From IMG/VR virus record IMGVR_UViG_3300012953_000012, positions 141,565-205,564 of that record: 64,000 nucleotides of DNA. One strand, 5' to 3'. A model generated the notes under the pieces. That model saw only the letters and a program-made list of their open reading frames with translations, ran no database searches and was not told the origin of the DNA. The translations under genes and the position numbers were made by a program. The DNA is from a virus. Taxonomy: Duplodnaviria; Caudoviricetes. Of the stretch, positions 2,858 through 51,403 are shown piece after piece (positions within the stretch are counted from its first letter, which is position 1; the number at the start of each line of letters is the position of its first letter).

Positions 2858-3435
2858 CCCGCGAAGGCAGGGAGGAGGCGACCCTCCTTCTGTTCGGGGT
2901 GGTGTTCCTGATGCTCTGGCAGTGTGACGAGCCTTCGGCGCGTGCGCTCCCTCCACTGGAGATCCCGGACACGGCGGTGGCAGCACCTGAGCCTGACCCT
3001 CCCGAGGACTTCGCACGGCACTGTGACGTCAAGCCGCCGGTCGGCTTCAACCGCATGGTCGAGAAGGCTGCCCAGGAGTCCGAGATCAACCCCCGACTCC
3101 TGGCGCTGACCGTGTACCGCGAGAGCCGGTGCAAGGTGGACGCAGTCGGGGCGGTCGGGGAGATCGGTCTGGGGCAGGTGTACCCGGCCATCTGGACCAA
3201 GGTACTGACCGACGAGGGGATCATCGGCTCGGTAGATGACCTCTACGATCCTGAGGTCAACCTGCGTGCGGTCGGCTTCATCCTGGGCGAAGCCTTGCGT
3301 TACGCGAAGGGAGACCCCACCGATGCACTCCGAAGATACAACGGCACCGGCCCCGCAGCAGAGCGGTACGCCCACGAGCAAACCCACCTCTACCAAGCCA
3401 TGTGGGGAGAATCCCTCTGGTTCCGAGACAGGTAG
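2854..3435 (+). CDS. Lytic transglycosylase (SLT family) with N-terminal membrane anchor
   Basis: Catalytic motif YRES, GLGQ motif, DPEVNL and RRYNG motifs; hydrophobic LLLFGVVFLMLW. Confidence 0.85.
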   Translation: MTREGREEATLLLFGVVFLMLWQCDEPSARALPPLEIPDTAVAAPEPDPPEDFARHCDVKPPVGFNRMVEKAAQESEINPRLLALTVYRESRCKVDAVGAVGEIGLGQVYPAIWTKVLTDEGIIGSVDDLYDPEVNLRAVGFILGEALRYAKGDPTDALRRYNGTGPAAERYAHEQTHLYQAMWGESLWFRDR

Positions 3436-3692
3436 CCTGACCCTGTGTGGCCCCAGCCTACGACCCCAGCCTATCTGCGACTGGGGAGGCTGCTCCCAGC
3501 GGGCGACACAGGCCCGGCTGTGGCAACGGCTGTGGCTGCCCGTCTGTGATACCTGTGCCGTGAGATAGCCTCACCGACCCGCCTGCCCCCGCCGTCTTTC
3601 ACTCTTCTTGTTCAGCGGCCAGGACAGGCGGGTCGTTTTGGTACTTCGTCTATGGGGCACGGGTATGGTGGGGCTTCCCCGTGGAGCCGACC

Positions 3693-3887
3693 ATGCCTCT
3701 CTTTGAATACCGCTGCCAGAAGTGCGGACACGAGTTTGAACGGCTCGTCAAACACTCCGAACGCGACACACCCCAGAAATGCGTCAACCCGAAATGCGAG
3801 TCCACGGACACGAGGAAACTCGTCTCCCGGACTTCCTTCTCTCTCAAAGGAGGAGGCTGGGCAGCAGACGGCTACGCGAACGACTGA
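3693..3887 (+). CDS. FmdB-family zinc-ribbon protein
   Basis: MPLFEYRCQKCGHEFE...C..C...FSLKGGGWAADGY. Confidence 0.85.
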   Translation: MPLFEYRCQKCGHEFERLVKHSERDTPQKCVNPKCESTDTRKLVSRTSFSLKGGGWAADGYAND

Positions 3888-3894
3888 GTGACCC

Positions 3895-5148
3895 ATGCCA
3901 TACCGCCTACTGACTGCCCTACTGACCGTGACCCTTGCTGGGTGTCCCAGCCCAACGCCCCCGGAGCCAACGACGTGCCAGGCTGATCCCGCGTGGATCA
4001 CCAACCCGTCGATGCCCGGAGAGGTGCCTGAGGCTGAGTCCTTCTGCGACTTCTACCAGTTCAGTTGGCAGTGGATGATCGCCCAGGCCAGCCCTGACCA
4101 GAGCGGAGAGCCGGTGTTCATGCAGAACCGGGTCTACTCCCCGACCGGAGGCAACGACCAGTGTGCCGATGCGCCCATCACAGGCGTCCTGGGGGCCATG
4201 GAGCAGTTGATCCCACGTCAGGGCAAGCCCACCAACTTTGAGGACGCCCAGGCGGACGGCAACGCCCTCTACGACCAGAACGGCAACGTCCTCTACTACA
4301 ACGCCTTCTACTCCCAGGAGTTGTGCAGCGCGACCTCAGCCGGGTTCGTGCCGGGCACGCTGGAAGCAAAGGTGTCGTGGATGATCCTCCAGGAAGGGAC
4401 GCACCACACCTACTACACGGTCAGCGCCTCGCTACCGGGTCACGAGGAGCAACTCACCCTCGGCCTGGTCGGGCTTCACCTGGCCATCTGGACACCCCAC
4501 CACCCGGAAATGATCTGGGCCACCTGGGAGCACAAGACCAACGCACCGCTGTGCAACGGGAGCAGCGCCGCGAGCGGTTGGTCCCTGGCCTCGGACGAGG
4601 CGGCGGCGTGTCTACAGGCCAATGCGACCGTAGGACCTGGACCGTCGCCTCGGTGCGCGTCGTTCAACTTCAACACGGCCCACCCTCACTCCAGTGAGGT
4701 CCCTGTCACGGGTGATCCCATCAACGTCTGTCGGCAGTACGCCTACGGCAACCAGGACGGCACCGCAGTCAACGGGAACGACAACGTGGCGAACCTGGCG
4801 GCGATCACAGAACTCAACACTGCGCTCGTCGGCGACGAAGGGCTCCTGACCCAACTGCCCTCGGACAACCCGATGCAGGTCTGGTCCAACTACGAGATGG
4901 TGGGAGCCATCTGGACGAAGGACGGTGCGGACTCTGGACCGCCTCCCGTGCCGAGCACTCAGACGCAAGGCCCCGGTGATGCCAACAGCCCCCAGCGCGG
5001 CTCGTTGGAACTGACCAACATGACCCTGGAAACCTTCCAGCAGGGCGACACCAGTGCGGTGCCTAACTGCTTCGGGTGCCACAACTACGACTCGTCGAAG
5101 CCTCTGGACGTCTCACACATCCAGTCGAAGTTGCTGCCGTCAGAGTGA
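3895..5148 (+). CDS. Lipoprotein with C-terminal c-type heme motif
   Basis: Signal peptide with lipobox LAGC; CFGCH near the C-terminus; several other Cys. Confidence 0.75.
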   Translation: MPYRLLTALLTVTLAGCPSPTPPEPTTCQADPAWITNPSMPGEVPEAESFCDFYQFSWQWMIAQASPDQSGEPVFMQNRVYSPTGGNDQCADAPITGVLGAMEQLIPRQGKPTNFEDAQADGNALYDQNGNVLYYNAFYSQELCSATSAGFVPGTLEAKVSWMILQEGTHHTYYTVSASLPGHEEQLTLGLVGLHLAIWTPHHPEMIWATWEHKTNAPLCNGSSAASGWSLASDEAAACLQANATVGPGPSPRCASFNFNTAHPHSSEVPVTGDPINVCRQYAYGNQDGTAVNGNDNVANLAAITELNTALVGDEGLLTQLPSDNPMQVWSNYEMVGAIWTKDGADSGPPPVPSTQTQGPGDANSPQRGSLELTNMTLETFQQGDTSAVPNCFGCHNYDSSKPLDVSHIQSKLLPSE

Positions 5149-5151
5149 GAC

Positions 5152-5168
5152 CGGTAGTCCGTCTATCG
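5152..5168 (+). promoter_or_regulatory. Late-class motif CGGTAG-N5-CTATCG
   Basis: Exact consensus 28 nt upstream of ATG 5197. Confidence 0.7.
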
Positions 5169-5196
5169 AAAACCACCAGCAACGAAGGAGGTCAAC

Positions 5197-5697
5197 ATGG
5201 CCCGCAAACTGATGGCTTCTGACCGGAAGTCCCTGATCCGTCTGGCGTCCTCACTCCCCGTAGGTAGTGAGGATCGGAGAACCATCCTCTCCGCGCTCAA
5301 GAAAGCCCGGACCTTCAACCCGTACCGCACGGGTCACAAGTACGGCATCGACTTGAAGACCGTGGACAACAAGACCGTGAAGCGGTACGGCTCTGATGGT
5401 AATGCCACTTCGGGACTCAGCGGGCTGTTTTACGCCACCGGAACCGTCACTGACTCCAGCCGCCCCGGAGAGCACCCCTTCATGGCGGTGTTCCGCATCG
5501 ACCAATCACCACGGTCGGGGACAATGATCTTTGATGTGGAGCGGGTGTATGGCAGAAGTGCCGAGGCCGCGATGAACGCCGAGATCGCCTCGTATGTCTT
5601 TTTTCAGAACTCCAGGGCTGCTTCCAAGTTGGTGGACATGCTGGGCCGCATCCAGTACGTTCCCGCACCCGGAACCGAGCGTGACTTCATGGATTGA
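5197..5697 (+). CDS. Putative internal virion protein with N-terminal LIRLASSLPVGS tag
   Basis: AAGGAGG RBS; N-terminus ASDRKSLIRLASSLPVGSEDRRTILSALKKA. Confidence 0.8.
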   Translation: MARKLMASDRKSLIRLASSLPVGSEDRRTILSALKKARTFNPYRTGHKYGIDLKTVDNKTVKRYGSDGNATSGLSGLFYATGTVTDSSRPGEHPFMAVFRIDQSPRSGTMIFDVERVYGRSAEAAMNAEIASYVFFQNSRAASKLVDMLGRIQYVPAPGTERDFMD

Positions 5698-5797
5698 GGC
5701 CGTACTTGAGCAGGCGGTAGATCTTGAGGACGAGGTAACCGTAGACGGCGGTGCAGATGAACACGCCCGCAGCCATGCCGAGAATGAAGTGGGTCAC
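5687..5797 (-). CDS. Small membrane peptide (36 aa, MTHFILGMAAGVFICTAVYGYLVLKIYRLLKYGLNP)
   Basis: GTG start overlaps the upstream TGA (GTGA); single hydrophobic helix. Confidence 0.5.
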   Translation of the reverse strand: MTHFILGMAAGVFICTAVYGYLVLKIYRLLKYGLNP

Positions 5798-6033
5798 GGA
5801 TCACCCTGCTTCATCGAGGGGGCTTGCCCATCCTCCAAAGCAGGAACAGGCAGACGCCGAGGACGAAGGTGATCTGGTACACCAGCGGGAGCAGCATCGG
5901 ACGCGCTCTCCTTGCGAAGGCGTTCGACCTCAGCGAGCAGCCTCTTGAGATCCTGCTGCGCGGTCAGGATGTGCCACTTGTAGAAACTGTCCGCCATGCG
6001 GCTTCGGATGGCTTCCAGTTCGTCGTCGGTCAT
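5794..6033 (-). CDS. Hypothetical protein (MTDDELEAIRSR...LLAEVERLR)
   Basis: Typical small phage protein motif; GAGAG RBS. Confidence 0.6.
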   Translation of the reverse strand: MTDDELEAIRSRMADSFYKWHILTAQQDLKRLLAEVERLRKESASDAAPAGVPDHLRPRRLPVPALEDGQAPSMKQGDP

Positions 6034-6256
6034 TGGTCTCTCTCGCCAAAAGCGCACGGGCCTTGTGGTACGCCTCCTCGGAGCAGGAGGCGCGGACGTG
6101 AGCATGGTACGCATCCGCATGATCTTCCGTGGCGTACCACGGAGTCAATGGGTCTCCGTTGTCGGGGTTGGCGTCAACGGGGCGAGGGGGGACAAGGCGT
6201 CCCTCCTTGCGTGGCAGCAACTTGCCGCCGGATCGGATGAAGTAGTACCAGCGCAT
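5930..6256 (-). CDS. Hypothetical protein (MRWYYFIR...)
   Basis: Start follows the upstream stop, but the ORF overlaps the next gene by about 100 nt. Confidence 0.45.
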   Translation of the reverse strand: MRWYYFIRSGGKLLPRKEGRLVPPRPVDANPDNGDPLTPWYATEDHADAYHAHVRASCSEEAYHKARALLARETNDRRRTGSHPKPHGGQFLQVAHPDRAAGSQEAAR

Positions 6257-6574: not shown

Positions 6575-7884
6575 GCTGACTCCTTTGAAGTCTCGGCTGG
6601 GGTTCCCAGCACATAGGTGTGGCTGTCGGGGACCGAGCCTCGGCTTCCCTTCTTGTAGGGCTTCACCCATCGCCGTTTCAGAGCGAGTTGTTCGGTGATC
6701 GTTTGCTTTTCGGTTCGGTGATGGGCCTCAGCCCGGCGCAGAGCCGCGACAATAGGCACTAAGGTAGTGATCTCAGGGTCGTCTTCGGAGAGGCTTGCCA
6801 GACGCTTGCGGGCTTTGTTGGCCTCTTCCTGGGCCTCGTCGTGTGCTTGCGTGGCTTCCCGGATGCGGTGGGCGATGGTGTCTCGTCGAGGCCACCAGTG
6901 GCCTCGGACCCAATGCTCACGTTGGGAGGTCCCCGTACCAGTGCTGGTGGAGGGTTCGTTGCCTCGGATGCGGACGGAACGCCCAACCCACGAAACGATG
7001 TCGGTGGGCAGCGTGGTCAACTGCTTCCGCAACTTACGCCCCCGACTCTTGTTTGGATTCTTCATGCGGCCCAGAGCGGTCGTGATCTCCTTGCGGCGGA
7101 GGTTGGCCTCGACCACAGCCTCGTCCAGAGTGACCTCCGCGTCCTGGCAGTCCATATAGAGCAGAGCGTTGAAGAGCACGCGCATCACATGGAGGACGCC
7201 CGCGATGGCCGTCCCTCCGTCGTTCCTGGGCATCTGGGTGGACAGTCCGAGGCTGCGTCCAAAATCAGTCATCTCAGTCAGCGAGGCATCGCGCTCGGGA
7301 TCATTCAGCATGGCAAGGAGGTAGGTCTCCAGGTCCGTATTCCTCATCTCCGCGAGATCGAAGGTGAACCACATGGACGCATCGTCGCCGGGGCCGTGGG
7401 AGCGTTCATTCTCCATGCCCCAGATATAGACGTTGATCATCCCTTCGGGGCAGGTGACCTCACCTTCCACGTCCTGGATGCACTCGCCTGGGGGGACGTA
7501 GCGCACGAACACGCCTCCGACCTTGTGCCAGAGGGTCTTTTCGCCACCCCAGATCTGGGCCTCGCAGTCCGGCAACGCCATGTAGAGACAGCGGTAGGGC
7601 AACTTGAGTTCGTTGAACCCAATGTCCTTCAACGAGGTGCGGGCCAATGCGTCCTGCATCTCGTTGGGGACCACAAAGGTCTGACGGCCTTGTGTGCGGT
7701 ACTCCGCAAGGAACAGGGTGAGGGTGTAGAGGGCACGGTGGAACCCCACGCCGGGCATATCGAAAAGAGGCATCACCGACTGTTGGTCAGTGCCATCTAC
7801 GAGGGCCTGGACGATCTGCTCGTGGAAGGGGTCACGGGGAACCTCTCGGGGGAGCATCCGAATCTGGTCAAACACGTTGATCAT
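6571..7884 (-). CDS. Hypothetical protein with HWVRGHW...WVKPY motif
   Basis: 437-aa ORF; the motif recurs in uncharacterised phage proteins. Confidence 0.7.
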   Translation of the reverse strand: MINVFDQIRMLPREVPRDPFHEQIVQALVDGTDQQSVMPLFDMPGVGFHRALYTLTLFLAEYRTQGRQTFVVPNEMQDALARTSLKDIGFNELKLPYRCLYMALPDCEAQIWGGEKTLWHKVGGVFVRYVPPGECIQDVEGEVTCPEGMINVYIWGMENERSHGPGDDASMWFTFDLAEMRNTDLETYLLAMLNDPERDASLTEMTDFGRSLGLSTQMPRNDGGTAIAGVLHVMRVLFNALLYMDCQDAEVTLDEAVVEANLRRKEITTALGRMKNPNKSRGRKLRKQLTTLPTDIVSWVGRSVRIRGNEPSTSTGTGTSQREHWVRGHWWPRRDTIAHRIREATQAHDEAQEEANKARKRLASLSEDDPEITTLVPIVAALRRAEAHHRTEKQTITEQLALKRRWVKPYKKGSRGSVPDSHTYVLGTPAETSKESA

Positions 7885-34423: not shown

Positions 34424-34440
34424 CGGTAGTGCGACTATAG
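34424..34440 (+). promoter_or_regulatory. Late-class motif CGGTAG-N5-CTATAG
   Basis: 33 nt upstream of the tagged gene at 34474. Confidence 0.7.
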
Positions 34441-34473
34441 GATCAGAAGGTCAAGACTTCTGGAGCGACCCCG

Positions 34474-35070
34474 ATGCCTCGTACCCTGACTGCCGCCGAC
34501 CGTAGTGCCCTGATTCGCCTTGCTTCGACCCTGGAGAAGGGTTCGCCCGAACGCAAGGCCATCCTCGCCGGACTGGGGAAGATGGCGTATGGCTGGAGCA
34601 GGTCTGAGAAGGAACTCGGTCGTAAGGCGATGGCGGAACTCGGACTCACCCAGGGCCAGATGTATGCCCTCCTGGACAGCATGGGTGCTATGTCCGCCCA
34701 CAATAAGAGCCTTCGTGACGGTGATGGCGAGAAGCCCATGAAGGGAAAGCGTGATTGGATCGCCATGTCCATGACAGACGGGTTGGTCCGCCCTCTCGGC
34801 AGGAAGACTCTGGGCCGCTTCTACGACATCGTGTACGGCGACCGGCGGCGTGCCGGACTGGAGAAGATGGCAAGGATGCCTTCTATGGTGCTCAACGATC
34901 CCAAAGCCTACTTGCGGTGGGCGCGGAAGACCTGGGAATACAACGTCAACAACCCCCGCCTGAAGTTCGATGCTGCCGTCGAAAAGACGCGCAAGAAGAA
35001 CCGGCTTCCCGATACTCCCGAAGGGCGTGCCGAGGCGGCATACCACGAGATCACGCTGCTCCAGGACTGA
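34474..35070 (+). CDS. Putative internal virion protein with LIRLAS tag
   Basis: MPRTLTAADRSALIRLASTLEKGSPERKAILAGLGKMA. Confidence 0.8.
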   Translation: MPRTLTAADRSALIRLASTLEKGSPERKAILAGLGKMAYGWSRSEKELGRKAMAELGLTQGQMYALLDSMGAMSAHNKSLRDGDGEKPMKGKRDWIAMSMTDGLVRPLGRKTLGRFYDIVYGDRRRAGLEKMARMPSMVLNDPKAYLRWARKTWEYNVNNPRLKFDAAVEKTRKKNRLPDTPEGRAEAAYHEITLLQD

Positions 35071-40454: not shown

Positions 40455-40471
40455 CGATAGAGACCCTACCG
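40455..40471 (-). promoter_or_regulatory. Late-class motif CGGTAG-N5-CTATCG
   Basis: Overlaps the nrdJ stop codon. Confidence 0.7.
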
Positions 40472-42532
40472 CGCAGACTGCTGAACCGTGTCCTCTGCTG
40501 GGGTCAGGGTTTCCCAGTCGATCTCACAGGAACCACCGACACAGGCCAGGGTCTGTGCGCCGTTGCCCATGTCCTCGGTTTCGTACCGAGAGAGCAGCGC
40601 GTAGTCGAGAACAGGGAAGTCCAGGAGCCGGGTGCGGTACTCGGACTCGGTGATCTCTTCGTAGGGGGCCAACTCGTACTTGCCGCCGTCGTAGGGCAGG
40701 AAGGAAAGCCCCGTGACCTCGTCGAAGTGCTCGTAGAGCCAGTCACCAACCTGACCCCACTCGTCTTCGCGGACGTAGACCGTGGCGCTCTGGTTGTGGC
40801 CGCGCTCCGAGCACCAGGTCCGCATGATGTGGAGGTAGCGGCCCAACTGCTCCAGGGCGGTCTCGTCGTTCCGGGTCATGCAGCCTTCGGGGGCCTTGAC
40901 TGGAAACTCGACAACCCAGGTCGGGCAGTCAGCATCGGGGCCATTCTTGTACTTCACGTCCTTGAAGACAGGAGCACCGGAGTCCCGGACCAGGTGGAAC
41001 AAGGGGTCGTTGGCACTCACCCGGACGCGCCGGATGTAGAACTCTGCGTACCGGGTGTGGAAGCCGCTCGCGCAGTCCACCGCCTGGGAGGAGTTGCCGC
41101 TGGGCTTGCCACAGGTCACGGACGCAGGCATCTCGATGCCCAGGTGTGCAGCCGCTTCGGCGGCAGTCTCCAGGGCGACCTGGTTGAAGTAGGACATCGC
41201 CTCGGCATCGTTGGAGAGCGCCGGGTTGTCACAGTGGCCGGTGATGTCCACCCCGAGCAGGCGGTCTTCGTTGCAGTGCTGAGTCCAGGCAGGACGCAGG
41301 TAGGGGAAGTCGGTGAACGACGCCTGGAGGGCACCGATCCAGGTGGCGGTGCGAACCTTCGCAGCGAAGGACTCGCGGGTGTCTGTCTCCCGCATGACGG
41401 CAGCCGAGAGGTTGCAGAACTGCCCGCCGCCGCCCTTGCCTGTCCAGGGGCACTCGGCTCTGGAGAAGCGAAGCAGGATCTCACCGCAGGGGTTGGACCG
41501 CATCTCGCCGTTGCGCTCTTCACGACGGCTGGAGGGGATCATGTAGAAGCCGCGTTCGCCGGAACCGCTGTTCCGAAGGGCGTCCCACTCGCGGTCGAAG
41601 ATGTCACGGTCTGGCTTGGCGTCCCAGAACGCCGAGATATTCGCCATGTAGCGACACTCGGGGAACGACCCCTTGCGCCAATCCTTTGCGTGTCGCATGA
41701 GTTCGTCGTCAGGGTCAGAGAAGCAGATCAACGCTGCGCGGCGCACACCACCAGCCTTGACGATCTCACCGATCATGCAGGCGATGTCACTGACCTCGAT
41801 GGTCCGCAACTGGCGGCCTGAGGCACCGTCGATGATCTCTTGGCAGAACTCCAGGAGGAGACGGAGAGGCTTCGGCCCGGAAGCACGGCCACCCTTCGTC
41901 TGGCAGCGGGCACCTTCGGGGCGGATCTGCGAGTAGTCAAACTCGACGGTGTGTCCCTTCCACATGTGGGTCAACCCGTTGAACACCGCATCGGCCCAGC
42001 CGACTGTGCTGTCCGGGATGGTGTACTGGATCGCGTCACCAGAACGAGGGGCGACCTCTGGGAGGTTGCCGACGAACTTGCGCTCGACCGAGTAGCCGAC
42101 ACCCGTGCCCATCATCAGGATGTACAGCATCTCCCCAAACGCCTTGAGGTTGTCGAGGGGCACGAAGGAGCAGTTGTAGATCATCGTGTTGTCACGCGCT
42201 GCCGCAGGGCCAGCGGACCACAGAGCACGCATCGACGGAAGGACTCCCATCGAGAGCATCCCCTCCCGGATGTCCCCCAAAACCGCAGAAGGAACGGAAC
42301 GCTCACCACCAACGAAGTCGCAGTAGCGGTCCACCGCCTCCTCGTAGGTCTCGCGGCGGCCCTCTTCTTCGCGCCAGCGTAGGTACGAGCGGGTCACAAC
42401 AAACTGAGACAGGGCGTTGGGGTAGCCGAAAACCGGCTTGCGGGTGGGAACGAGGTCAGGGCTGCTACTACACGACTCATGCCTGGTCGGGGTGCTGGAT
42501 TGTGCGTCTGACAGGGGCATGAGTTCGATCAT
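40466..42532 (-). CDS. nrdJ: Class II (AdoCbl-dependent) ribonucleotide reductase
   Basis: LPSMRALW, YNCSF, GGVRRAALI, NPCGEI, CNLS, KPSGN, C-terminal CVGGSC; no radical-generating subunit nearby. Confidence 0.9.
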   Translation of the reverse strand: MIELMPLSDAQSSTPTRHESCSSSPDLVPTRKPVFGYPNALSQFVVTRSYLRWREEEGRRETYEEAVDRYCDFVGGERSVPSAVLGDIREGMLSMGVLPSMRALWSAGPAAARDNTMIYNCSFVPLDNLKAFGEMLYILMMGTGVGYSVERKFVGNLPEVAPRSGDAIQYTIPDSTVGWADAVFNGLTHMWKGHTVEFDYSQIRPEGARCQTKGGRASGPKPLRLLLEFCQEIIDGASGRQLRTIEVSDIACMIGEIVKAGGVRRAALICFSDPDDELMRHAKDWRKGSFPECRYMANISAFWDAKPDRDIFDREWDALRNSGSGERGFYMIPSSRREERNGEMRSNPCGEILLRFSRAECPWTGKGGGGQFCNLSAAVMRETDTRESFAAKVRTATWIGALQASFTDFPYLRPAWTQHCNEDRLLGVDITGHCDNPALSNDAEAMSYFNQVALETAAEAAAHLGIEMPASVTCGKPSGNSSQAVDCASGFHTRYAEFYIRRVRVSANDPLFHLVRDSGAPVFKDVKYKNGPDADCPTWVVEFPVKAPEGCMTRNDETALEQLGRYLHIMRTWCSERGHNQSATVYVREDEWGQVGDWLYEHFDEVTGLSFLPYDGGKYELAPYEEITESEYRTRLLDFPVLDYALLSRYETEDMGNGAQTLACVGGSCEIDWETLTPAEDTVQQSAR

Positions 42533-42635
42533 CGTGGTGTCCTCGGAGGCGTAGGGTTCGGGTTTCATAAAGCGTCGGGCAGCCATTAGAGCCTCGACTG
42601 TGAAGCCCTCTCTGAACCCGCCCCTATACGGCGGG

Positions 42636-46511: not shown

Positions 46512-47801
46512 CTACCGGGCTACGAAGGTGTCACCCCAGCCTTTGCGGACGAGGCCCTGAATGTCGAGGTAGGCCAGGCACCGGTCGAGTCGTGGCTGGT
46601 CCATCCGCAGCGCCTCCTTGATTTCCTTCTTGGTGGACCACGGCTCCATGCGGAGCAGGGCCAGAGTGTTTTGGGCATCTTCACGAGTCTGGATGCCTTC
46701 GCGCAACGCCGCCCGGACCTTGCTCCGGTTGGTGAGGGCACGGGTCACCGAGCACTCGTCCATGTCGGCAATCTCCTCGGCACTCGCTCCTGCGATCATG
46801 GCGTCGTACACAGCAGTGTACCGCTCGACTGCGCCCCGGAACGCGGAGGCAACGATCTCCCGACCGACTCGGACCATCTCCTCTCGGTCCCGGTGAGTTG
46901 CGACCTCGTCCTCAGGGGTCATGCTGGGGTCCACCAGGACATGCTCCACAACCAGGTCCCCTTCGTCGGGCTTCATTCGGATGACCTCGATGTCCCCTGC
47001 CACCAGGCTCTCAGGGGCGACATAGTCCTCCTGACCGAGTTCAATGCGTTGGTTGATCTCATGCTGGGTGCGAGCGCCGCGCTGACGGGCAAGAGCGTCC
47101 TGAGCGGACTTGTAGATGGAAGAGGTGCGCTTGCGCTCCAATGCCCGGCACAACCACGAGAACGGGACCGCGCCCTTCTCCTTGATGACGGCATCGAACG
47201 TGCCCTTCTGTCCCCAGGTTGCCAACCACAGGCCAGCGTCTGAACGGAGGTCATCGAAGTCAGCATGGACATCGCGCTTCGCCAACATCGCGGCAAGTCG
47301 TTTGATGAGGCCGTGCTCCGCGATCTGAACCGCCAGCCACTCTTGGGTCAGGGTGGTGGAGGCAGCGGGAGCCTTCACAGGAGCCGCAGGAGCCTCGACA
47401 GGGGCTTCCTCGACCACAGGCTCCGGTGCAGCCTCGACAACGGGCTCGACAGGCTGTGGGGTCTCGACGGGGGTTGAGTCGGTGTTGCTCTCCGGGAGCA
47501 CGTCGAGGACGATCTCGCGGTCTCCGTCACGGAGGGTGGCGAGCAGGGTCTCGGGCTGACCTCGGAGGGCAGCGAGTAGAGCGGATGCAAAGCGGGTCTG
47601 AGCCCCAGCGCCCTTGAAGCCATTTTGGAGCACGAGGTCACGGCGCACGATGCTGCGCTTGCGGCCCTGCTCTTCGGCGGTGGCGGTGATCCAGACGCTG
47701 ATCTCTCGCTCGACCGAGGCGTCGTCCTCGGGAGTGGCGGTGAAGCCGCTGATCAGGTTGGTGAGGAGGGCGAGACGGCGTGGGGTGGTCTTGATAGACA
47801 T
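46512..47801 (-). CDS. ECF-like sigma factor with N-terminal extension and extra C-terminal wHTH
   Basis: Region 2: LIKRLAAML...DFDDLRSD...FD...FSWLCR. Region 4: ERYTAV...GASAEEIA...SVTRALTNRSKVRAALR. Confidence 0.7.
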   Translation of the reverse strand: MSIKTTPRRLALLTNLISGFTATPEDDASVEREISVWITATAEEQGRKRSIVRRDLVLQNGFKGAGAQTRFASALLAALRGQPETLLATLRDGDREIVLDVLPESNTDSTPVETPQPVEPVVEAAPEPVVEEAPVEAPAAPVKAPAASTTLTQEWLAVQIAEHGLIKRLAAMLAKRDVHADFDDLRSDAGLWLATWGQKGTFDAVIKEKGAVPFSWLCRALERKRTSSIYKSAQDALARQRGARTQHEINQRIELGQEDYVAPESLVAGDIEVIRMKPDEGDLVVEHVLVDPSMTPEDEVATHRDREEMVRVGREIVASAFRGAVERYTAVYDAMIAGASAEEIADMDECSVTRALTNRSKVRAALREGIQTREDAQNTLALLRMEPWSTKKEIKEALRMDQPRLDRCLAYLDIQGLVRKGWGDTFVAR

Positions 47802-47907
47802 GGCGTTCCTGGGTTTGCCAGCAGGGCTGGTCATGCGATGGTTTTTTCGATCAGGTCAGGACAGGCGACAGTGCTACAAGGAGCGGGTCTTTGGTCGTGA
47901 CCCTTCG

Positions 47908-47936
47908 GTTGTAGCATGGGAGGAGCGGCGGGTCAA
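47908..47936 (-). promoter_or_regulatory. Host sigma70-type promoter TTGACC-N17-TACAAC with extended -10 TG
   Basis: Canonical spacing, upstream of the sigma gene at 47801. Confidence 0.6.
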
Positions 47937-47991
47937 CCCGGTTTGGCCACTTTTGTCCCACTTTGCTCCACGTCCCCCGATTAGCGTTGCT

Positions 47992-48042
47992 CGGTAGAGT
48001 GGCTATGATCACGGACCAGTGATCTCGGTAGTCCCTCTATGG
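47992..48042 (+). promoter_or_regulatory. Two tandem late-class motifs (47992-48008, 48026-48042)
   Basis: CGGTAG-AGTGG-CTATGA and CGGTAG-TCCCT-CTATGG. Confidence 0.72.
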
Positions 48043-48076
48043 GACGCCGGGGTGTACGACCTACGGAGACTCCCCC

Positions 48077-50347
48077 ATGTTTCAGCCAACTGACCGCGCC
48101 CCCCTGTTGCGCCTTGCGTCGAGCCTCCCTGTAGGCTCTTCGGAGCGTAGAACCATCCTTGCCACCTTGAAGAAGGAGGCCGGGATCATGGACGACACGC
48201 TGGCGCGGGCGGACCTGCTTTCAGGTGCTCTCAAGAAGAGCAAGACCGCTGACCGTGGGCCTGTCCTGGAGGTCATGCAGGGCGGCATCGGAGGATTCTT
48301 CGACAAGTGGAACACATGGGTGAAGGAAAAGGCTCCCGAGTACGGAGCCAAAGACCTCGCAGAACTCCGTGAGTCTCCTGATCTCAACGACGAGGACCGT
48401 GATGCTCTGGAGGGCTTCGACAAGCGGCTCAAGACCTACGGTCCCGTCGCATCCCAACTCCTTGATCTGCTGGGTCAGATCGGAGAGGCCGAGAAAGACG
48501 CCTACGATGTCCTGTCCAACCGCAAGGACTACAAGTTGCGCGAAGCCGTCATGGCAGGCGCGGCCAAAGGCATCCACGGCATGGTTTCTACGATGGACTC
48601 GGGTCGTCGCCAGGTCACGGACATCGGACGGGGTGGGATCACCACTCCTGGGTCACACGGCGTAGACGCGGAAGACCTCGCCCAGGTCATGCTGGGCGGC
48701 GGCATGTTCATGCCAGGCATGATCTTCGACATGAACATCAAGGACAAGACCGACATTGGTCAGGGCTACAAGGTCAAAGGCGCGTTCAAGGAGCGCAAGA
48801 AGGTCTGGTCACCTGCGGGAACGAGCGTCTACACCATCTCTGGTGCCGCACGCGGACCCTACATCAAGCCTGCCGCCAACTACGCCCGCACTGTGGCTAT
48901 GAACGCCGCTGTGGACTGGAAGCGCAGCGTCCACGTCGAGTTGGAGTACATCCTCACCCCTGCCGACGAGCAGGACGGTGCGGACACGGGTGCCATCAAC
49001 ATGGGCGGCAAGGTCAGCCTGGAGACTCTCATGGGAGCCGAAGAGATCGCGGGCGTCCCTGTCAGCAGGCAGATGATCCTGGCTCAGTACTACATCAGGA
49101 AGATCGAGTCGAAGTTGGACAAGATGCTCAAGGAGGGAGTCGCCAAGGCTACCTGGCAGGCAGTCATGGCCCTGATCAAGGACCGGAAGAACCCCTGGAA
49201 GAAGGGTGGGGCTGGAGACTTCTCCATCGCTGTCCCCGTCGTCGCAAAGTTCCTGGAGAGCACCCGCGAAGGCCAGGAGATCATGGAAGCGAACGGCATG
49301 GAGAAGGCGGATCCGCGCACCATGCAGGCTCGCTGGAAGGACGCTGTGAAGAGCCTGAGGAAGGCGCTGTCTCAGTTGTCCGACGACGATCTGCTCTCCT
49401 CCCTCCACCTCACCCTGGAAGGGTTGGTGGATGATGTCCCCGCGTACATCCGCCAAATCAAGGACGACAAGGACCTCTACCAGACATACCTCTCGGACCT
49501 GCGAAAGACCGCCTCGGAGCAGAAGACCCTCACTGCATCTGACCGTTCGGCACTGATTCGCCTGGCCGCATCCCTGCCTGTGGGATCACCGGAACGCCGT
49601 GCGATCCTTGCTGGCTGCGAGAAGTTGCCCGCTGGCCCGATGCGGGACAACTGCGAGAAGTCCAAGAAGGACGGTGTGCAGCCTGGCAAGGGCAAGTCGA
49701 AGGCGAAGTCCGACGACAAGAAGAAGGACGACGGCAAGATGCCCGCCGAGTTGCTGGAGAAGTTCAAGGCGAAGAAGGCTGGCAAGGATATGTCTCCCGC
49801 CGAGATCAAGAAGAAGATCGAGGAGATGGAACACTTCCTCGACATGATGCAGAACTACGACCCCTTCCTCCGAGGCCCCATCCACCATCAGTTCCAAGCC
49901 ACCTCCAAGCAAGTGGCGGACTTGAAGAAGGCTCTCGACAAGGCCCTCCGTGGAAAGAAGGCTGCTGGTAGCCCTGACCCCAAGGGTCGCAACAGGAAGG
50001 AAGCCGCTGGCAACACGACGACCCTGACCTTCGATGTGAAGTACCTCATGCCCCTCATGTCCGTGCTCCAGAAGAACGGCTACAAGATCCGGCAGTCGGG
50101 TCGCGGGATGGAAGTGGTTGGCCATGACCGGTTCGACAAGGCTGCGGGCAAGGTGCCCGACGCTCTCAAGAAGCACCAGTTCAAGCCCGGTGAGGGCGCG
50201 GGCGAGGATGCTGACGGTGACGGCAAGACCAACGAGCCGAAGCCCGACTTCCTCAAGAAGAAGGCCGCGCTGATTCGCCTGGCTGCCACACTCCCTGTGG
50301 GATCACACGAGCGCAAGACCATCCTTCGCATGGCCGCTGGAGCATGA
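48077..50347 (+). CDS. Tagged putative virion protein containing an ECF sigma-like domain
   Basis: Three LIRLA tags; DAEDLAQVML and YARTVAMNAAVDWKRS (region 2); PRTMQARWKDAVKSLRKAL (region 4.2-like). Confidence 0.65.
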   Translation: MFQPTDRAPLLRLASSLPVGSSERRTILATLKKEAGIMDDTLARADLLSGALKKSKTADRGPVLEVMQGGIGGFFDKWNTWVKEKAPEYGAKDLAELRESPDLNDEDRDALEGFDKRLKTYGPVASQLLDLLGQIGEAEKDAYDVLSNRKDYKLREAVMAGAAKGIHGMVSTMDSGRRQVTDIGRGGITTPGSHGVDAEDLAQVMLGGGMFMPGMIFDMNIKDKTDIGQGYKVKGAFKERKKVWSPAGTSVYTISGAARGPYIKPAANYARTVAMNAAVDWKRSVHVELEYILTPADEQDGADTGAINMGGKVSLETLMGAEEIAGVPVSRQMILAQYYIRKIESKLDKMLKEGVAKATWQAVMALIKDRKNPWKKGGAGDFSIAVPVVAKFLESTREGQEIMEANGMEKADPRTMQARWKDAVKSLRKALSQLSDDDLLSSLHLTLEGLVDDVPAYIRQIKDDKDLYQTYLSDLRKTASEQKTLTASDRSALIRLAASLPVGSPERRAILAGCEKLPAGPMRDNCEKSKKDGVQPGKGKSKAKSDDKKKDDGKMPAELLEKFKAKKAGKDMSPAEIKKKIEEMEHFLDMMQNYDPFLRGPIHHQFQATSKQVADLKKALDKALRGKKAAGSPDPKGRNRKEAAGNTTTLTFDVKYLMPLMSVLQKNGYKIRQSGRGMEVVGHDRFDKAAGKVPDALKKHQFKPGEGAGEDADGDGKTNEPKPDFLKKKAALIRLAATLPVGSHERKTILRMAAGA

Positions 50348-50348
50348 C

Positions 50349-50984
50349 ATGAACAAGCAAGCACTCCGAGAAGCGATGATCGCTGAGGGCATGATCCGAA
50401 AGGCAAGCCCCTCTCTCCCCAGGCCACGGCGCAACACCCGTGCGGGGGAGAAGTTCGTCAGCAAGGTTCGTCAGTGGATGTGGGCGGACATTCAGGCCCA
50501 GATGGAACAGGCGGGCGTACCCCAGAAGCGGATCGAGGAACTGATCTCCTACCACACCGGGATCCCCACGGTCTTTGACTACCGCTTGAAGGACCTCTCC
50601 CAGGTAGACCTGATCGGCTGGATCGAGGGCAAGTGGACTCCTCCTGGCCCGATTGGGTACGGCTCTGCGAAGACCTACCCCCAGATCCTCAAGCAACAGG
50701 CCCAGCAGTACGGTGGTGCTTCTACCGCTGCCCGAGACCAGACCCTCTCCATCGCAAACAAGTTGAGCAACGACCAGAAGGCCCTTGCTTTCGCAGCGAT
50801 GCGCCTGAGCCTCCACTACAGCAGCATTGACGAGCCTATCGGGTCGTCAGTGCAGAGGGGAAGGGCCGCGAAGGCGTTGATGGAGTACATCCACGAGACC
50901 AGGACGGACAACCTGGCCAAGATGCTTCCGATTCTCCAGTGGGCTGCAAAGTGCCCGTCCAAGATCCCGGTCATGGACTACTGA
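50349..50984 (+). CDS. Putative internal virion protein with MNxxxLR...EG...RKAS leader
   Basis: MNKQALREAMIAEGMIRKAS. Confidence 0.7.
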   Translation: MNKQALREAMIAEGMIRKASPSLPRPRRNTRAGEKFVSKVRQWMWADIQAQMEQAGVPQKRIEELISYHTGIPTVFDYRLKDLSQVDLIGWIEGKWTPPGPIGYGSAKTYPQILKQQAQQYGGASTAARDQTLSIANKLSNDQKALAFAAMRLSLHYSSIDEPIGSSVQRGRAAKALMEYIHETRTDNLAKMLPILQWAAKCPSKIPVMDY

Positions 50985-51022
50985 GGACGCGGGTACAGTC
51001 CCAGACGAACCTCGGGACTGCT

Positions 51023-51403
51023 ATGCCGACCTACGAATACAAGTGCGAGAGATGCGACCATCGCTTTGAGCGGCTGCTTCGCATCTCCCAGTACAAGGAA
51101 CCCCAGGCTTGCCCTGAGTGCGGGCACAGCCCTGCCAAGAAGCAAGTCTCGATGGGGTCAGGCTTCATCCTGCGTGGTGACGGCTGGGCCGGGAAGAACA
51201 ACCGGGTCAAGGGCCAGATGCGCCGCAAGAACGCTCGCCTCAAGGGCAAGGAGAACGAGTGGAAGCGCGACTCCGGGCCGACCCTGGCCCCCAACGTCGG
51301 TGGTGAGCGCACGGAGTCCTGGTCGGACGCCAGCAAACTTGCTGCCTCCCAGGGCAAGGACACGAGCGGCTACGACAAGTTGGCCCGCAAGGAGAAGAAG
51401 TGA
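51023..51403 (+). CDS. FmdB-family zinc-ribbon protein (second copy)
   Basis: MPTYEYKCERCDHRFE...CPECG...FILRGDGW. Confidence 0.85.
   Translation: MPTYEYKCERCDHRFERLLRISQYKEPQACPECGHSPAKKQVSMGSGFILRGDGWAGKNNRVKGQMRRKNARLKGKENEWKRDSGPTLAPNVGGERTESWSDASKLAASQGKDTSGYDKLARKEKK

What the first reader, a model, noticed from the sequence alone, without database searches (positions are those of the whole stretch)
46512..50347. Candidate virion-packaged ECF-like sigma factor, back to back with a second sigma
Seen: the 756-aa ORF at 48077-50347 is preceded by two late-class motifs. It carries three copies of the LIRLAxxLPVGSxERRxIL tag and many K/R-x-A sites. Between the N-terminal and internal tags it has DAEDLAQVML...YARTVAMNAAVDWKRS...VSLETL...PRTMQARWKDAVKSLRKAL. 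Established: these segments match ECF sigma region 2 (AEDLxQ; WLxxIAxNxAIDxxR) and region 4.2 (TVKSRLxRAxxxLR). Virion-delivered transcription machinery is known from N4 and phiKZ virion RNAPs and poxvirus cores, but as whole polymerases. The divergent ORF 46512-47801 is a second ECF-like sigma under a host sigma70-type promoter. Inference: the phage makes a sigma late, packages and trims it in the head, and injects it to reprogram host RNAP onto the non-canonical early promoters (which can be read as ECF-like CGTTAA-N16-CGTA). The second sigma would drive middle or late genes. I am not aware of a described injected sigma factor.
Basis: partly seen in the sequence, partly recalled or inferred. 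Interest (0 to 1): 0.92.

Follow-up and report, generated by a model that had tools for sequence, protein, structure and literature searches.

The report
Tag-flanked late phage protein, not a sigma
The 756-residue protein of this uncultured marine giant phage shows no convincing sigma-factor features; it looks like a late-made precursor framed by three copies of a portable 28-residue tag, probably for loading into the capsid, and it is the divergent neighbour gene that looks like a remote sigma factor.

Summary
They are the 756-aa ORF, two GGTAG-N5-CTAT motifs upstream, three peptide tags, an excess of K/R-x-A sites, and the quoted peptide segments.

The sigma reading of the 756-aa protein (P0001) fails every homology test I could run: Pfam, NCBIfam, hhalign, language-model neighbours and Foldseek. 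The only trace is a low-scoring resemblance (Z no higher than 5.9) between a helical subdomain at aa 325-441 and sigma region 4.

The better-supported picture is a portable tag system. The tag heads at least 17 unrelated cargo families in about 22 viral contigs. It usually sits behind the same promoter-like motif and is usually followed by K/R-x-A. P0001 has the layout tag, conserved core, tag, variable modules, tag. I read it as a late precursor that is targeted to the prohead and trimmed there. That step is inferred, with no virion data behind it.

The divergent ORF (P0002, 46512-47801) is a plausible remote sigma-70 relative with an added winged helix. Four weak lines of evidence agree on this: language-model neighbours, Foldseek hits, a sigma-4 profile match (P 0.0014), and a weak co-fold with the beta' clamp helices (0.48 against 0.04 for controls).

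First-stage notes on this genome had already flagged the tags.

The parts
47993..48006 (+). First copy of GGTAG-N5-CTAT, a promoter-like motif of the candidate late class.
   Evidence: There are 7 copies in the window against 0.03 expected. The motif is conserved upstream of P0001 homologues in L006 and L007.
48027..48040 (+). Second copy of GGTAG-N5-CTAT, 36 nt before the ATG.
48077..50347 (+). P0001, a 756-aa tag-flanked modular precursor. A GGAG Shine-Dalgarno sequence lies 9 nt upstream of the ATG.
48092..48175 (+). N-terminal tag (aa 6-33), followed by K-K-E-A-G.
   Evidence: HMM domain E 5e-17. The tag is invariant across 14 homologues.
48185..49516 (+). Conserved core domain (aa 37-480). 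It ends in the conserved R-K-T-A-S. Its function is unknown.
   Evidence: Alignments A1 and A2, distant relatives, and no Pfam, PHROG or NCBIfam match.
49049..49399 (+). Helical subdomain (aa 325-441) with a weak likeness to sigma region 4 and LuxR-type helix-turn-helix domains.
49541..49624 (+). Internal tag (aa 489-516), followed by the conserved GCEK...NCE cysteine pair.
49625..49786 (+). Lysine-rich linker (aa 517-570, pI 9.8).
49787..50146 (+). Variable modules (aa 571-690). This region is replaced by unrelated sequence in homologues.
   Evidence: Alignment A1, columns 600-830.
50147..50257 (+). Conserved VPDALKKHQF...DxDGDGKTNE segment, which resembles a DxDxDG calcium-binding loop.
   Evidence: The calcium-loop reading comes from my own knowledge of the Excalibur motif.
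50258..50341 (+). C-terminal tag (aa 728-755). The protein ends in R-M-A-A-G-A.
46512..47801 (-). P0002, a divergent sigma-70-like factor of 429 aa counted from M12. Residue numbers given for its parts use the 440-aa frame.
47010..47363 (-). Sigma-2-like helical region of P0002 (aa 158-275).
   Evidence: The AF2 model shows helices and the language-model neighbours carry Sigma70_r2. The co-fold with E. coli beta' 245-325 scored 0.48 against 0.04 for the best control, rated weak support.
46686..46925 (-). Sigma-4-like helix-turn-helix of P0002 (aa 304-383).
   Evidence: hhalign gives a colinear match to sigma regions 3.2-4 of six E. coli sigma factors (P 0.0014, probability 17%).
46515..46700 (-). 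C-terminal winged-helix domain of P0002 (aa 379-440).
47908..47936 (-). TTGACC-N17-(TGc)TACAAC, a candidate sigma70-like promoter for P0002.
   Evidence: Read from the sequence. TTGAC is conserved in L006 and L007. The site does not pass the consensus scan.
5153..5697 (+). GGTAG-N5-CTAT followed by a 166-aa ORF with an N-terminal tag.
34425..35070 (+). GGTAG-N5-CTAT followed by a 198-aa ORF with an N-terminal tag.

Best explanation
P0001 is not a sigma factor. It is a late-expressed modular precursor with this layout: a basic tag of about 28 residues, a conserved core of about 440 residues and unknown function, a second tag, a lysine-rich linker with exchangeable small modules, and a third tag.

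The tag is a portable leader that this clade of uncultured marine giant phages attaches to many unrelated proteins. I read it from the sequence as two amphipathic segments joined by a P-x-G-S turn.

The most likely mechanism is inferred, not shown. The tags dock the precursor to the acidic scaffold or to the inner capsid surface during prohead assembly. The head maturation protease then cuts at the K/R-x-A sites next to the tags and at the end of the core. That would leave the core and the basic modules inside the head as internal proteins, perhaps ejected with the DNA.

The divergent neighbour P0002 is a remote sigma-70-family factor. It has an N-terminal domain, a Pro/Ala-rich linker, a sigma-2-like region, a sigma-4-like region and an added winged helix. 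It probably redirects the host RNA polymerase. The conserved back-to-back pairing of the two genes is shown; any functional link between them is not.
For: Shown for the tags:
- The three tags are highly significant and conserved at the peptide level rather than the DNA level.
- The tag also heads three other ORFs in this genome. Each of them sits 30-45 nt behind GGTAG-N5-CTAT.
- A scan of viral contigs found 31 loci in about 22 contigs. In most, the tag is at the N-terminus of a small protein. The cargoes fall into at least 17 unrelated clusters.
- 15 of 26 distinct tags have K/R-x-A within 16 residues after the tag, against 20% of background windows (p 3e-5).

Shown for the family:
- The tag-core-tag layout and the R-[KR]-x-A-S end of the core persist in distant relatives.
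- A two-tag protein behind the same motif exists in the distant phage of L007.
- Variable modules in relatives include the Fusello_VP2_Capsid family, scoring above its Pfam cut-off.

Shown for the genome context:
- The genome has a head maturation protease (phrog_18299, E 6e-13). Next to it lies an acidic ORF with the highest K/R-x-A density in the genome, and nearby an HK97-like capsid protein.
- The promoter-like motif also precedes an ORF in the head module and units that hold baseplate-wedge and beta-helix proteins.
- The tags are basic, with pI 9.3-11.7.

Evidence against a sigma reading of P0001.

Evidence for a sigma reading of P0002.
Against: - There are no virion, proteomic or expression data. 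No RNA run holds the locus.
- P0001 lies among replication genes (ribonucleotide reductase, clamp-loader-like, RecD2-like helicase, RecA), not among head genes.
- The cleavage specificity of the protease is unknown, and K/R-x-A is a short motif in an alanine-rich proteome.
- No tagged cargo matches a known head protein.
- The AF2 model of the core is poor (pLDDT 55.8), so its fold, and therefore a very remote sigma relationship, is not excluded.
- The top structural rows for aa 325-441 are sigma region-4 domains.
- For P0002, every sigma HMM fails, and each positive line of evidence is weak taken alone.
Confidence: 0.5

Rival explanations
1. After trimming, the core of P0001 is an ECF-like sigma factor that is packaged in the head and injected, and it directs host RNA polymerase to the early promoters.
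For: - The quoted motifs exist.
- The gene is paired with a sigma-like gene in all relatives examined.
- No multisubunit RNA polymerase beta-like gene was found in the 205 kb held, so dependence on the host polymerase is plausible.
Against: - There is no hit to Sigma70_r2, Sigma70_r4_2 or TIGR02937, even at E up to 10.
- hhalign of the 24-sequence family against E. coli sigma factors gives P 0.15-0.4, and the aligned columns are not at the claimed sites.
- There is no language-model neighbour and no Foldseek match.
- The 62 residues between the two 'region 2' motifs are Gly/Pro-rich and are predicted with beta strands at pLDDT under 50.
- By the same tests P0002 does give sigma signals, so the methods were able to detect a remote sigma.
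Confidence: 0.06
2. The tags are docking peptides for a late complex other than the capsid, such as a tail or baseplate assembly, a replication or transcription factory, or a chaperone. P0001 would then be a non-virion adaptor that works with its conserved neighbour P0002, for example as a co-activator or regulator of late transcription.
For: - The divergent P0002/P0001 pair with a shared intergenic control region is conserved in distant relatives.
- The pair lies in a replication and transcription neighbourhood.
- P0001 has an HTH-like subdomain.
- The cargoes include bactofilin-like and DNA-binding-like modules, not known head proteins.
Against: - The promoter-like motif is shared with head-module, baseplate and fibre units.
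- K/R-x-A sites follow the tags, and the same motif is densest in the scaffold-like ORF beside the protease.
- A leader followed by a protease site is the known design of capsid-targeted proteins in T4 and in SPN3US (PMC10052503).
Confidence: 0.27
3. The tags are self-association or folding elements with no targeting role, and the K/R-x-A enrichment is a by-product of composition.
For: The motif is short and the proteome is alanine-rich. The background rate of windows with K/R-x-A is already 20%.
Against: - The tag is strictly conserved on at least 17 unrelated cargoes, almost always at the very N-terminus and behind one promoter-like motif.
- The K/R-x-A enrichment holds against shuffles of the same protein and against windows from the same proteins.
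Confidence: 0.1

Closest known systems
Capsid targeting sequence of the phage T4 internal proteins (IPI-III, Alt), removed by the gp21 prohead protease. Reference: Mullaney and Black 1996, cited as reference 30 in PMC10052503.
   Same: A short N-terminal leader shared by unrelated proteins and followed directly by a putative protease site. The carrier genes are expressed late, and the cargo is basic.
   Different: The sequence is unrelated and about three times longer. It is also used internally and at the C-terminus. The putative site is K/R-x-A-small, not L/I-x-E. Neither packaging nor cleavage has been shown here.
Propeptide-bearing ejection and head proteins of the giant phages SPN3US, phiKZ and 201phi2-1, cut by gp245 or gp175 after glutamate (PMC10052503).
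   Same: A giant phage whose head proteins carry N-terminal propeptides of 20 to 254 residues. Sites for one protease recur in many proteins, and long precursors are cut several times.
   Different: There is no sequence similarity. The phiKZ-group propeptides differ from protein to protein, whereas here one nearly identical tag is reused. The protease motif is different.
Sigma-70 family and ECF sigma factors (Pfam Sigma70_r2, Sigma70_r4_2; TIGR02937).
   Same: P0002 has helical sigma-2-like and sigma-4-like regions in the right order, language-model and Foldseek neighbours that are sigma factors, and a weakly supported co-fold with the beta' clamp helices.
   Different: P0002 fails all sigma HMMs. 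It also carries an extra N-terminal domain, a Pro/Ala-rich linker and a C-terminal winged helix. P0001 meets none of the sequence criteria.
Virion-delivered transcription machinery: the N4 virion RNA polymerase and the phiKZ virion RNA polymerase.
   Same: The general idea of a transcription component carried in the capsid.
   Different: Those are whole polymerases that have been shown in virions. Here there is no evidence that a transcription protein is packaged.
The coat-binding helix-turn-helix at the C-terminus of the P22 scaffolding protein, and the cargo-loading peptides of encapsulins. This comparison rests on my own knowledge and was not tested.
   Same: A short basic peptide that docks a protein to the inside of an HK97-fold shell, wherever it sits in the carrier.
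   Different: This is an analogy of mechanism only. No sequence relationship was found and no binding test was run.

Membership tests
Sigma-70 / ECF sigma factor (P0001) | A region 2 domain that family models can detect (PF04542, TIGR02937). | tested here: not met
   Pfam gave no hit at E up to 1. The genome-wide PF04542 search at E up to 10 hit only another ORF. NCBIfam gave nothing for the whole protein or for aa 150-445.
Sigma-70 / ECF sigma factor (P0001) | A region 4 helix-turn-helix (PF08281, PF04545). | tested here: inconclusive
Sigma-70 / ECF sigma factor (P0001) | An all-helical sigma-2 bundle spanning regions 2.1 to 2.4. | tested here: inconclusive
   The AF2 model has pLDDT under 50 for aa 167-264 and predicts beta strands between the two motifs. 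Foldseek against the PDB gives no match.
Sigma-70 / ECF sigma factor (P0001) | Binding to core RNA polymerase (beta' clamp helices, beta flap). | not tested
Sigma-70 family (P0002) | Regions 2 and 4 that family models can detect. | tested here: not met
   Pfam, NCBIfam and the genome-wide PF04542 and PF08281 searches gave no hit.
Sigma-70 family (P0002) | Remote sequence or fold similarity to sigma-2 and sigma-4 in colinear order. | tested here: met
   - The nearest Atlas clusters carry Sigma70_r2, Sigma70_r4 or ECF domains, scoring 0.94-0.90.
- The top Foldseek hit in AFDB is a sigma-70-family factor (E 1.3e-2), and at least 12 of the top 30 are sigma factors. PDB rows include sigma32, SigH and RpoE.
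- hhalign gives a sigma 3.2-4 match at P 0.0014.
Each line is weak individually.
Sigma-70 family (P0002) | Sigma-2 binds the beta' clamp helices. | tested here: inconclusive
   The co-fold of aa 158-275 with E. coli beta' 245-325 scored 0.48, against 0.04 for the best of 3 controls, and was rated 'weak support'. In the tool's calibration the mark was reached by 58 of 80 solved complexes and 2 of 110 mismatched pairs, but at a score of 0.60 or under by only 7 of the 80 solved complexes and by both mismatches. The three runs share at least 67% of contacts and the partner's pLDDT is at least 72.
Capsid-targeted, protease-processed head internal proteins (T4 IP / SPN3US type) | A shared short leader on otherwise unrelated proteins. 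| tested here: met
   Four ORFs in this genome carry it. In viral contigs there are 31 loci whose cargoes form at least 17 clusters.
Capsid-targeted, protease-processed head internal proteins (T4 IP / SPN3US type) | A prohead protease site directly after the leader, of the same kind as in the scaffold and the protease itself. | tested here: inconclusive
   K/R-x-A follows 15 of 26 distinct tags (p 3e-5). The motif is densest in the scaffold-like ORF. The real specificity of the protease is unknown.
Capsid-targeted, protease-processed head internal proteins (T4 IP / SPN3US type) | Co-expression with head genes. | tested here: inconclusive
   The carriers share GGTAG-N5-CTAT with head-module, baseplate and fibre units. 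No RNA data exist.
Capsid-targeted, protease-processed head internal proteins (T4 IP / SPN3US type) | Presence of the trimmed protein in virions. | not testable with these tools
   The phage is uncultured and known only from a marine metagenome.

The most novel reading that the evidence does not exclude
The trimmed core of P0001 is a virion-delivered DNA-binding or RNA-polymerase-binding factor. Its sigma-4/LuxR-like helical subdomain (aa 325-441) would act at the start of infection, alone or together with the neighbouring sigma-like P0002. That would make it the first known injected promoter-specificity or transcription factor that is not a polymerase.
Probability: 0.06. Interest if true: 0.85.

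Novelty: new variant of a known kind. Interest (0 to 1): 0.4.

Why it matters
If the tag is a capsid-loading signal, it gives a simple sequence rule for listing the packaged, possibly ejected, proteins of a whole clade of uncultured giant phages. It would also be a portable handle for loading foreign cargo into their heads. The reuse of the tag at N-terminal, internal and C-terminal positions, and a conserved core gene that collects exchangeable modules between tags, go beyond the T4 and phiKZ precedents. Separately, P0002 adds a very divergent sigma-like factor with a fused winged helix to the set of phage tools for redirecting host RNA polymerase. The specific claim of an injected sigma factor should not be carried forward on the present evidence.

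Tried and rejected
Searches that found nothing:
- blastn and tblastn of the locus, P0001 and P0002 against 50,697 phage records gave no match.
- PHROGs gave nothing useful for P0001, P0002, the tagged ORFs or their relatives.
- PDB profile searches gave only noise: HSP82 at E 0.006 for the P0001 core family and MxiC at E 0.48 for the P0002 family.
- Shape searches of both AF2 models in the ESM Atlas were uninformative, with TM no higher than 0.3.
- No RNA sequencing run holds the locus. Only marine metagenome DNA runs do, one of which may be the source sample.
- A multisubunit RNA polymerase beta-like domain (PF00562) is absent from the 205 kb held. The record is only about 46% complete, so this does not show that the phage lacks one.

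Steps that did not give what I needed:
- I tried to build a diverse sigma profile. The alignment of four E. coli sigma factors was too divergent for the search for related loci. The last homology search, with RpoE as query, returned only relatives at 86% identity or more. The hhalign tests therefore used six E. coli sigma factors only, which limits their power.
- The VIA second look at the P0002 model was filled by the C-terminal winged helix, so it did not test the sigma part.

Ideas considered and dropped:
- An ADP-ribosyltransferase reading of the core (R ... GTSxYT ... ExE). The ExE is not conserved in homologues.
- The published 'moraphage' lineage (PMC12619734). Its predicted hosts are mostly Bacteroidota, and nothing links it to this 62% GC phage.

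Full report
**Context.** The window is the last 64 kb of a 205,564-bp IMG/VR virus record with 62% GC. CheckV rates it about 46% complete. Its DNA polymerase is closest to that of an uncultured 485-kb phage, at 44% identity. The locus is found only in marine metagenome runs. The record holds a head module. It consists of a portal-like ORF, a head maturation protease (record 3124-4563, phrog_18299, E 6e-13), a strongly acidic scaffold-like ORF (4560-6074) and an HK97-like capsid protein (6841-7833, Pfam Phage_capsid, E 1.3e-4). The finding itself lies among replication and nucleotide-metabolism genes: ribonucleotide reductase, a clamp-loader-like gene, an FmdB-type zinc ribbon and a RecD2-like helicase.

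**Checking the observation.** The 756-aa ORF (P0001) is as described. GGTAG-N5-CTAT occurs twice just upstream of it, 7 times in the window against 0.03 expected, and 19 times in the record. A profile built from the tag finds three copies in P0001, each with domain E about 1e-17. It also finds N-terminal copies in the ORFs at window 5197 and 34474, and a weaker one at record 99428. All four carriers sit 30-45 nt behind the promoter-like motif. The tag copies differ at many synonymous sites, so selection acts on the peptide. [KR]xA[SAGD] occurs 14 times in P0001 against 4.7 expected by shuffling. The scaffold-like ORF has the highest density of this motif in the genome. The quoted 'sigma' segments are present.

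**Is P0001 a sigma factor?** No test supports it.
- Pfam, PHROGs and NCBIfam give nothing.
- Genome-wide searches with Sigma70_r2 and Sigma70_r4_2 at E up to 10 do not touch this locus.
- hhalign of a 24-member family alignment against six E. coli sigma factors gives P 0.15-0.4 over 24-29 columns, and those columns are not at the claimed places.
- Language-model searches of aa 36-486 and aa 150-445 return no usable neighbour.
- The AF2 model of aa 36-486 is poor (pLDDT 55.8). The 62 residues between 'DAEDLAQV' and 'YARTVAMNAAVDWKRS' are Gly/Pro-rich, modelled below pLDDT 50, and partly predicted as beta strand. Foldseek finds nothing.

**What P0001 is.** About 18 close homologues exist, all metagenomic and unnamed. 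An exhaustive profile search adds relatives as distant as E 6e-5. Across all of them the layout is tag, conserved core, tag. The core ends in R-[KR]-x-A-S. In some distant members the following tag is replaced by an R-x-A-S-x-x-R-V-A peptide, which other first-stage notes flagged elsewhere in this genome. After the second tag come a lysine-rich linker, segments that are swapped wholesale between homologues, a conserved DxDGDG segment and a last tag. In two distant relatives, the segment that follows the core matches the Fusello_VP2_Capsid family above its Pfam cut-off.

**The tag as a portable element.** A scan of IMG/VR with the tag found 31 loci in about 22 contigs of up to 297 kb. In most, the tag is at the very N-terminus of a 96-255-aa protein. 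Together with the tagged ORFs of this genome, the cargoes fall into 18 clusters. Among them are a bactofilin/beta-solenoid-like protein, another VP2-like module and DUF6876. 15 of 26 distinct tags are followed within 16 residues by K/R-x-A, against 20% of background windows (p 3e-5, not corrected for relatedness). In a distant phage (L007) a two-tag protein again sits behind GGTAG-N5-CTAT. The motif also precedes an ORF inside the head module, and units containing a baseplate-wedge protein and a beta-helix protein. That supports, but does not prove, a late class.

**Mechanism proposed.** The design matches the T4 capsid targeting sequence and the propeptides of SPN3US and phiKZ head proteins. 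Those are short leaders that bring proteins into the prohead and are then removed by the prohead protease (PMC10052503 and its reference 30). Here the tags are basic (pI 9.3-11.7) and the scaffold-like protein is very acidic. I therefore infer that the tags dock to the scaffold or to the inner shell, and that the protease then cuts at K/R-x-A. This would release the core and the small basic modules as internal head proteins. Three things are shown: the tags, their portability, and their association with the motif and with K/R-x-A. Three things are inferred: targeting, cleavage and ejection. The position of the gene among replication genes, and its conserved pairing with P0002, keep a non-capsid role open.

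**The divergent ORF.** Sigma HMMs fail, but four independent weak lines agree.
- The nearest language-model clusters for aa 158-440 are Sigma70_r2, Sigma70_r4 or ECF families, scoring 0.94-0.90.
- Foldseek returns sigma32, SigH and RpoE from the PDB. From AFDB it returns a sigma-70-family factor as top hit (E 1.3e-2), and at least 12 of the top 30 are sigma factors.
- hhalign aligns aa 255-383 colinearly with sigma regions 3.2-4 (P 0.0014, probability 17%).
- A co-fold of aa 158-275 with E. coli beta' 245-325 scored 0.48 against 0.04 for the best of three controls, rated 'weak support'. The runs share at least 67% of contacts and the partner's pLDDT is at least 72. In the calibration the mark was reached by 58 of 80 solved complexes and 2 of 110 mismatched pairs, but at a score of 0.60 or under by only 7 of the 80 solved complexes and by both mismatches.

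**Verdict.** What remains is a widespread, reusable leader tag with an adjacent putative processing site in a clade of uncultured giant phages. One conserved core gene uses it three times. Next to that gene lies a plausible, very divergent sigma-like factor. I rate the finding as a new variant of a known kind, of moderate interest. The injected-transcription-factor reading keeps about 6% probability.

Noticed in passing
L012:7182-8090 (-), record 87182-88090, outside the window: A 302-aa ORF with the only sigma HMM signals in the record: TIGR02937 sigma70-ECF at E 0.001 over model positions 18-158 of 165, and Sigma70_r2 at 14.4 bits. It may be another phage sigma-like factor.
   Followed up: partly
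L014:8029-19503 (+), record 128029-139503, outside the window: A 3824-aa ORF with no Pfam domain. Several other ORFs of 1100-1970 aa have no PHROG match. One of them (1971 aa) carries a right-handed beta-helix domain.
   Followed up: partly
window 49610-49670 (P0001 aa 512-530): The cysteine pair in G-C-E-K-x7-8-M-x2-N-C-E, right after the internal tag, is invariant or nearly so in all close homologues. It also follows tags in other viral contigs (L023-L026, L034). Its role is unknown.
   Followed up: no
window 50147-50257 (P0001 aa 691-727): A conserved HQF...NPxPKGxDxDGDGKTNE segment, resembling a DxDxDG calcium-binding loop of the Excalibur type, lies between the variable modules and the last tag.
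   Followed up: no
P0043 aa 460-526, P0044 aa 375-441, L046:1471-3081 aa 310-373: A module matching Pfam Fusello_VP2_Capsid above its cut-off recurs as cargo behind tags in relatives and in an unrelated tagged protein.
   Followed up: partly
window 48077 versus 48188: A public gene call for this protein (P0003, 719 aa) starts at M38 and so cuts off the N-terminal tag. Conservation of the tag in all homologues, together with a GGAG 9 nt before 48077, favours the longer form.
   Followed up: yes
L006:1774-4773 (-): In a related phage the ribonucleotide reductase large subunit carries an intein with a LAGLIDADG domain (999 aa). The window's copy at 40466-42586 has 706 aa and lacks it.
   Followed up: no
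window 50939-51403 (+): An FmdB-type zinc-ribbon ORF (phrog_1076, Pfam Zn_ribbon_8 in relatives) is conserved downstream of P0001 in all syntenic loci. It is separated from P0001 by one small ORF in L006 and in the window, and directly adjacent in L007.
   Followed up: no
L007:1185-2172 (+): In a distant relative, a 311-aa protein behind GGTAG-N5-CTAT carries two tags, one N-terminal and one at aa 214-240. Each is followed by K-K-A.
   Followed up: partly
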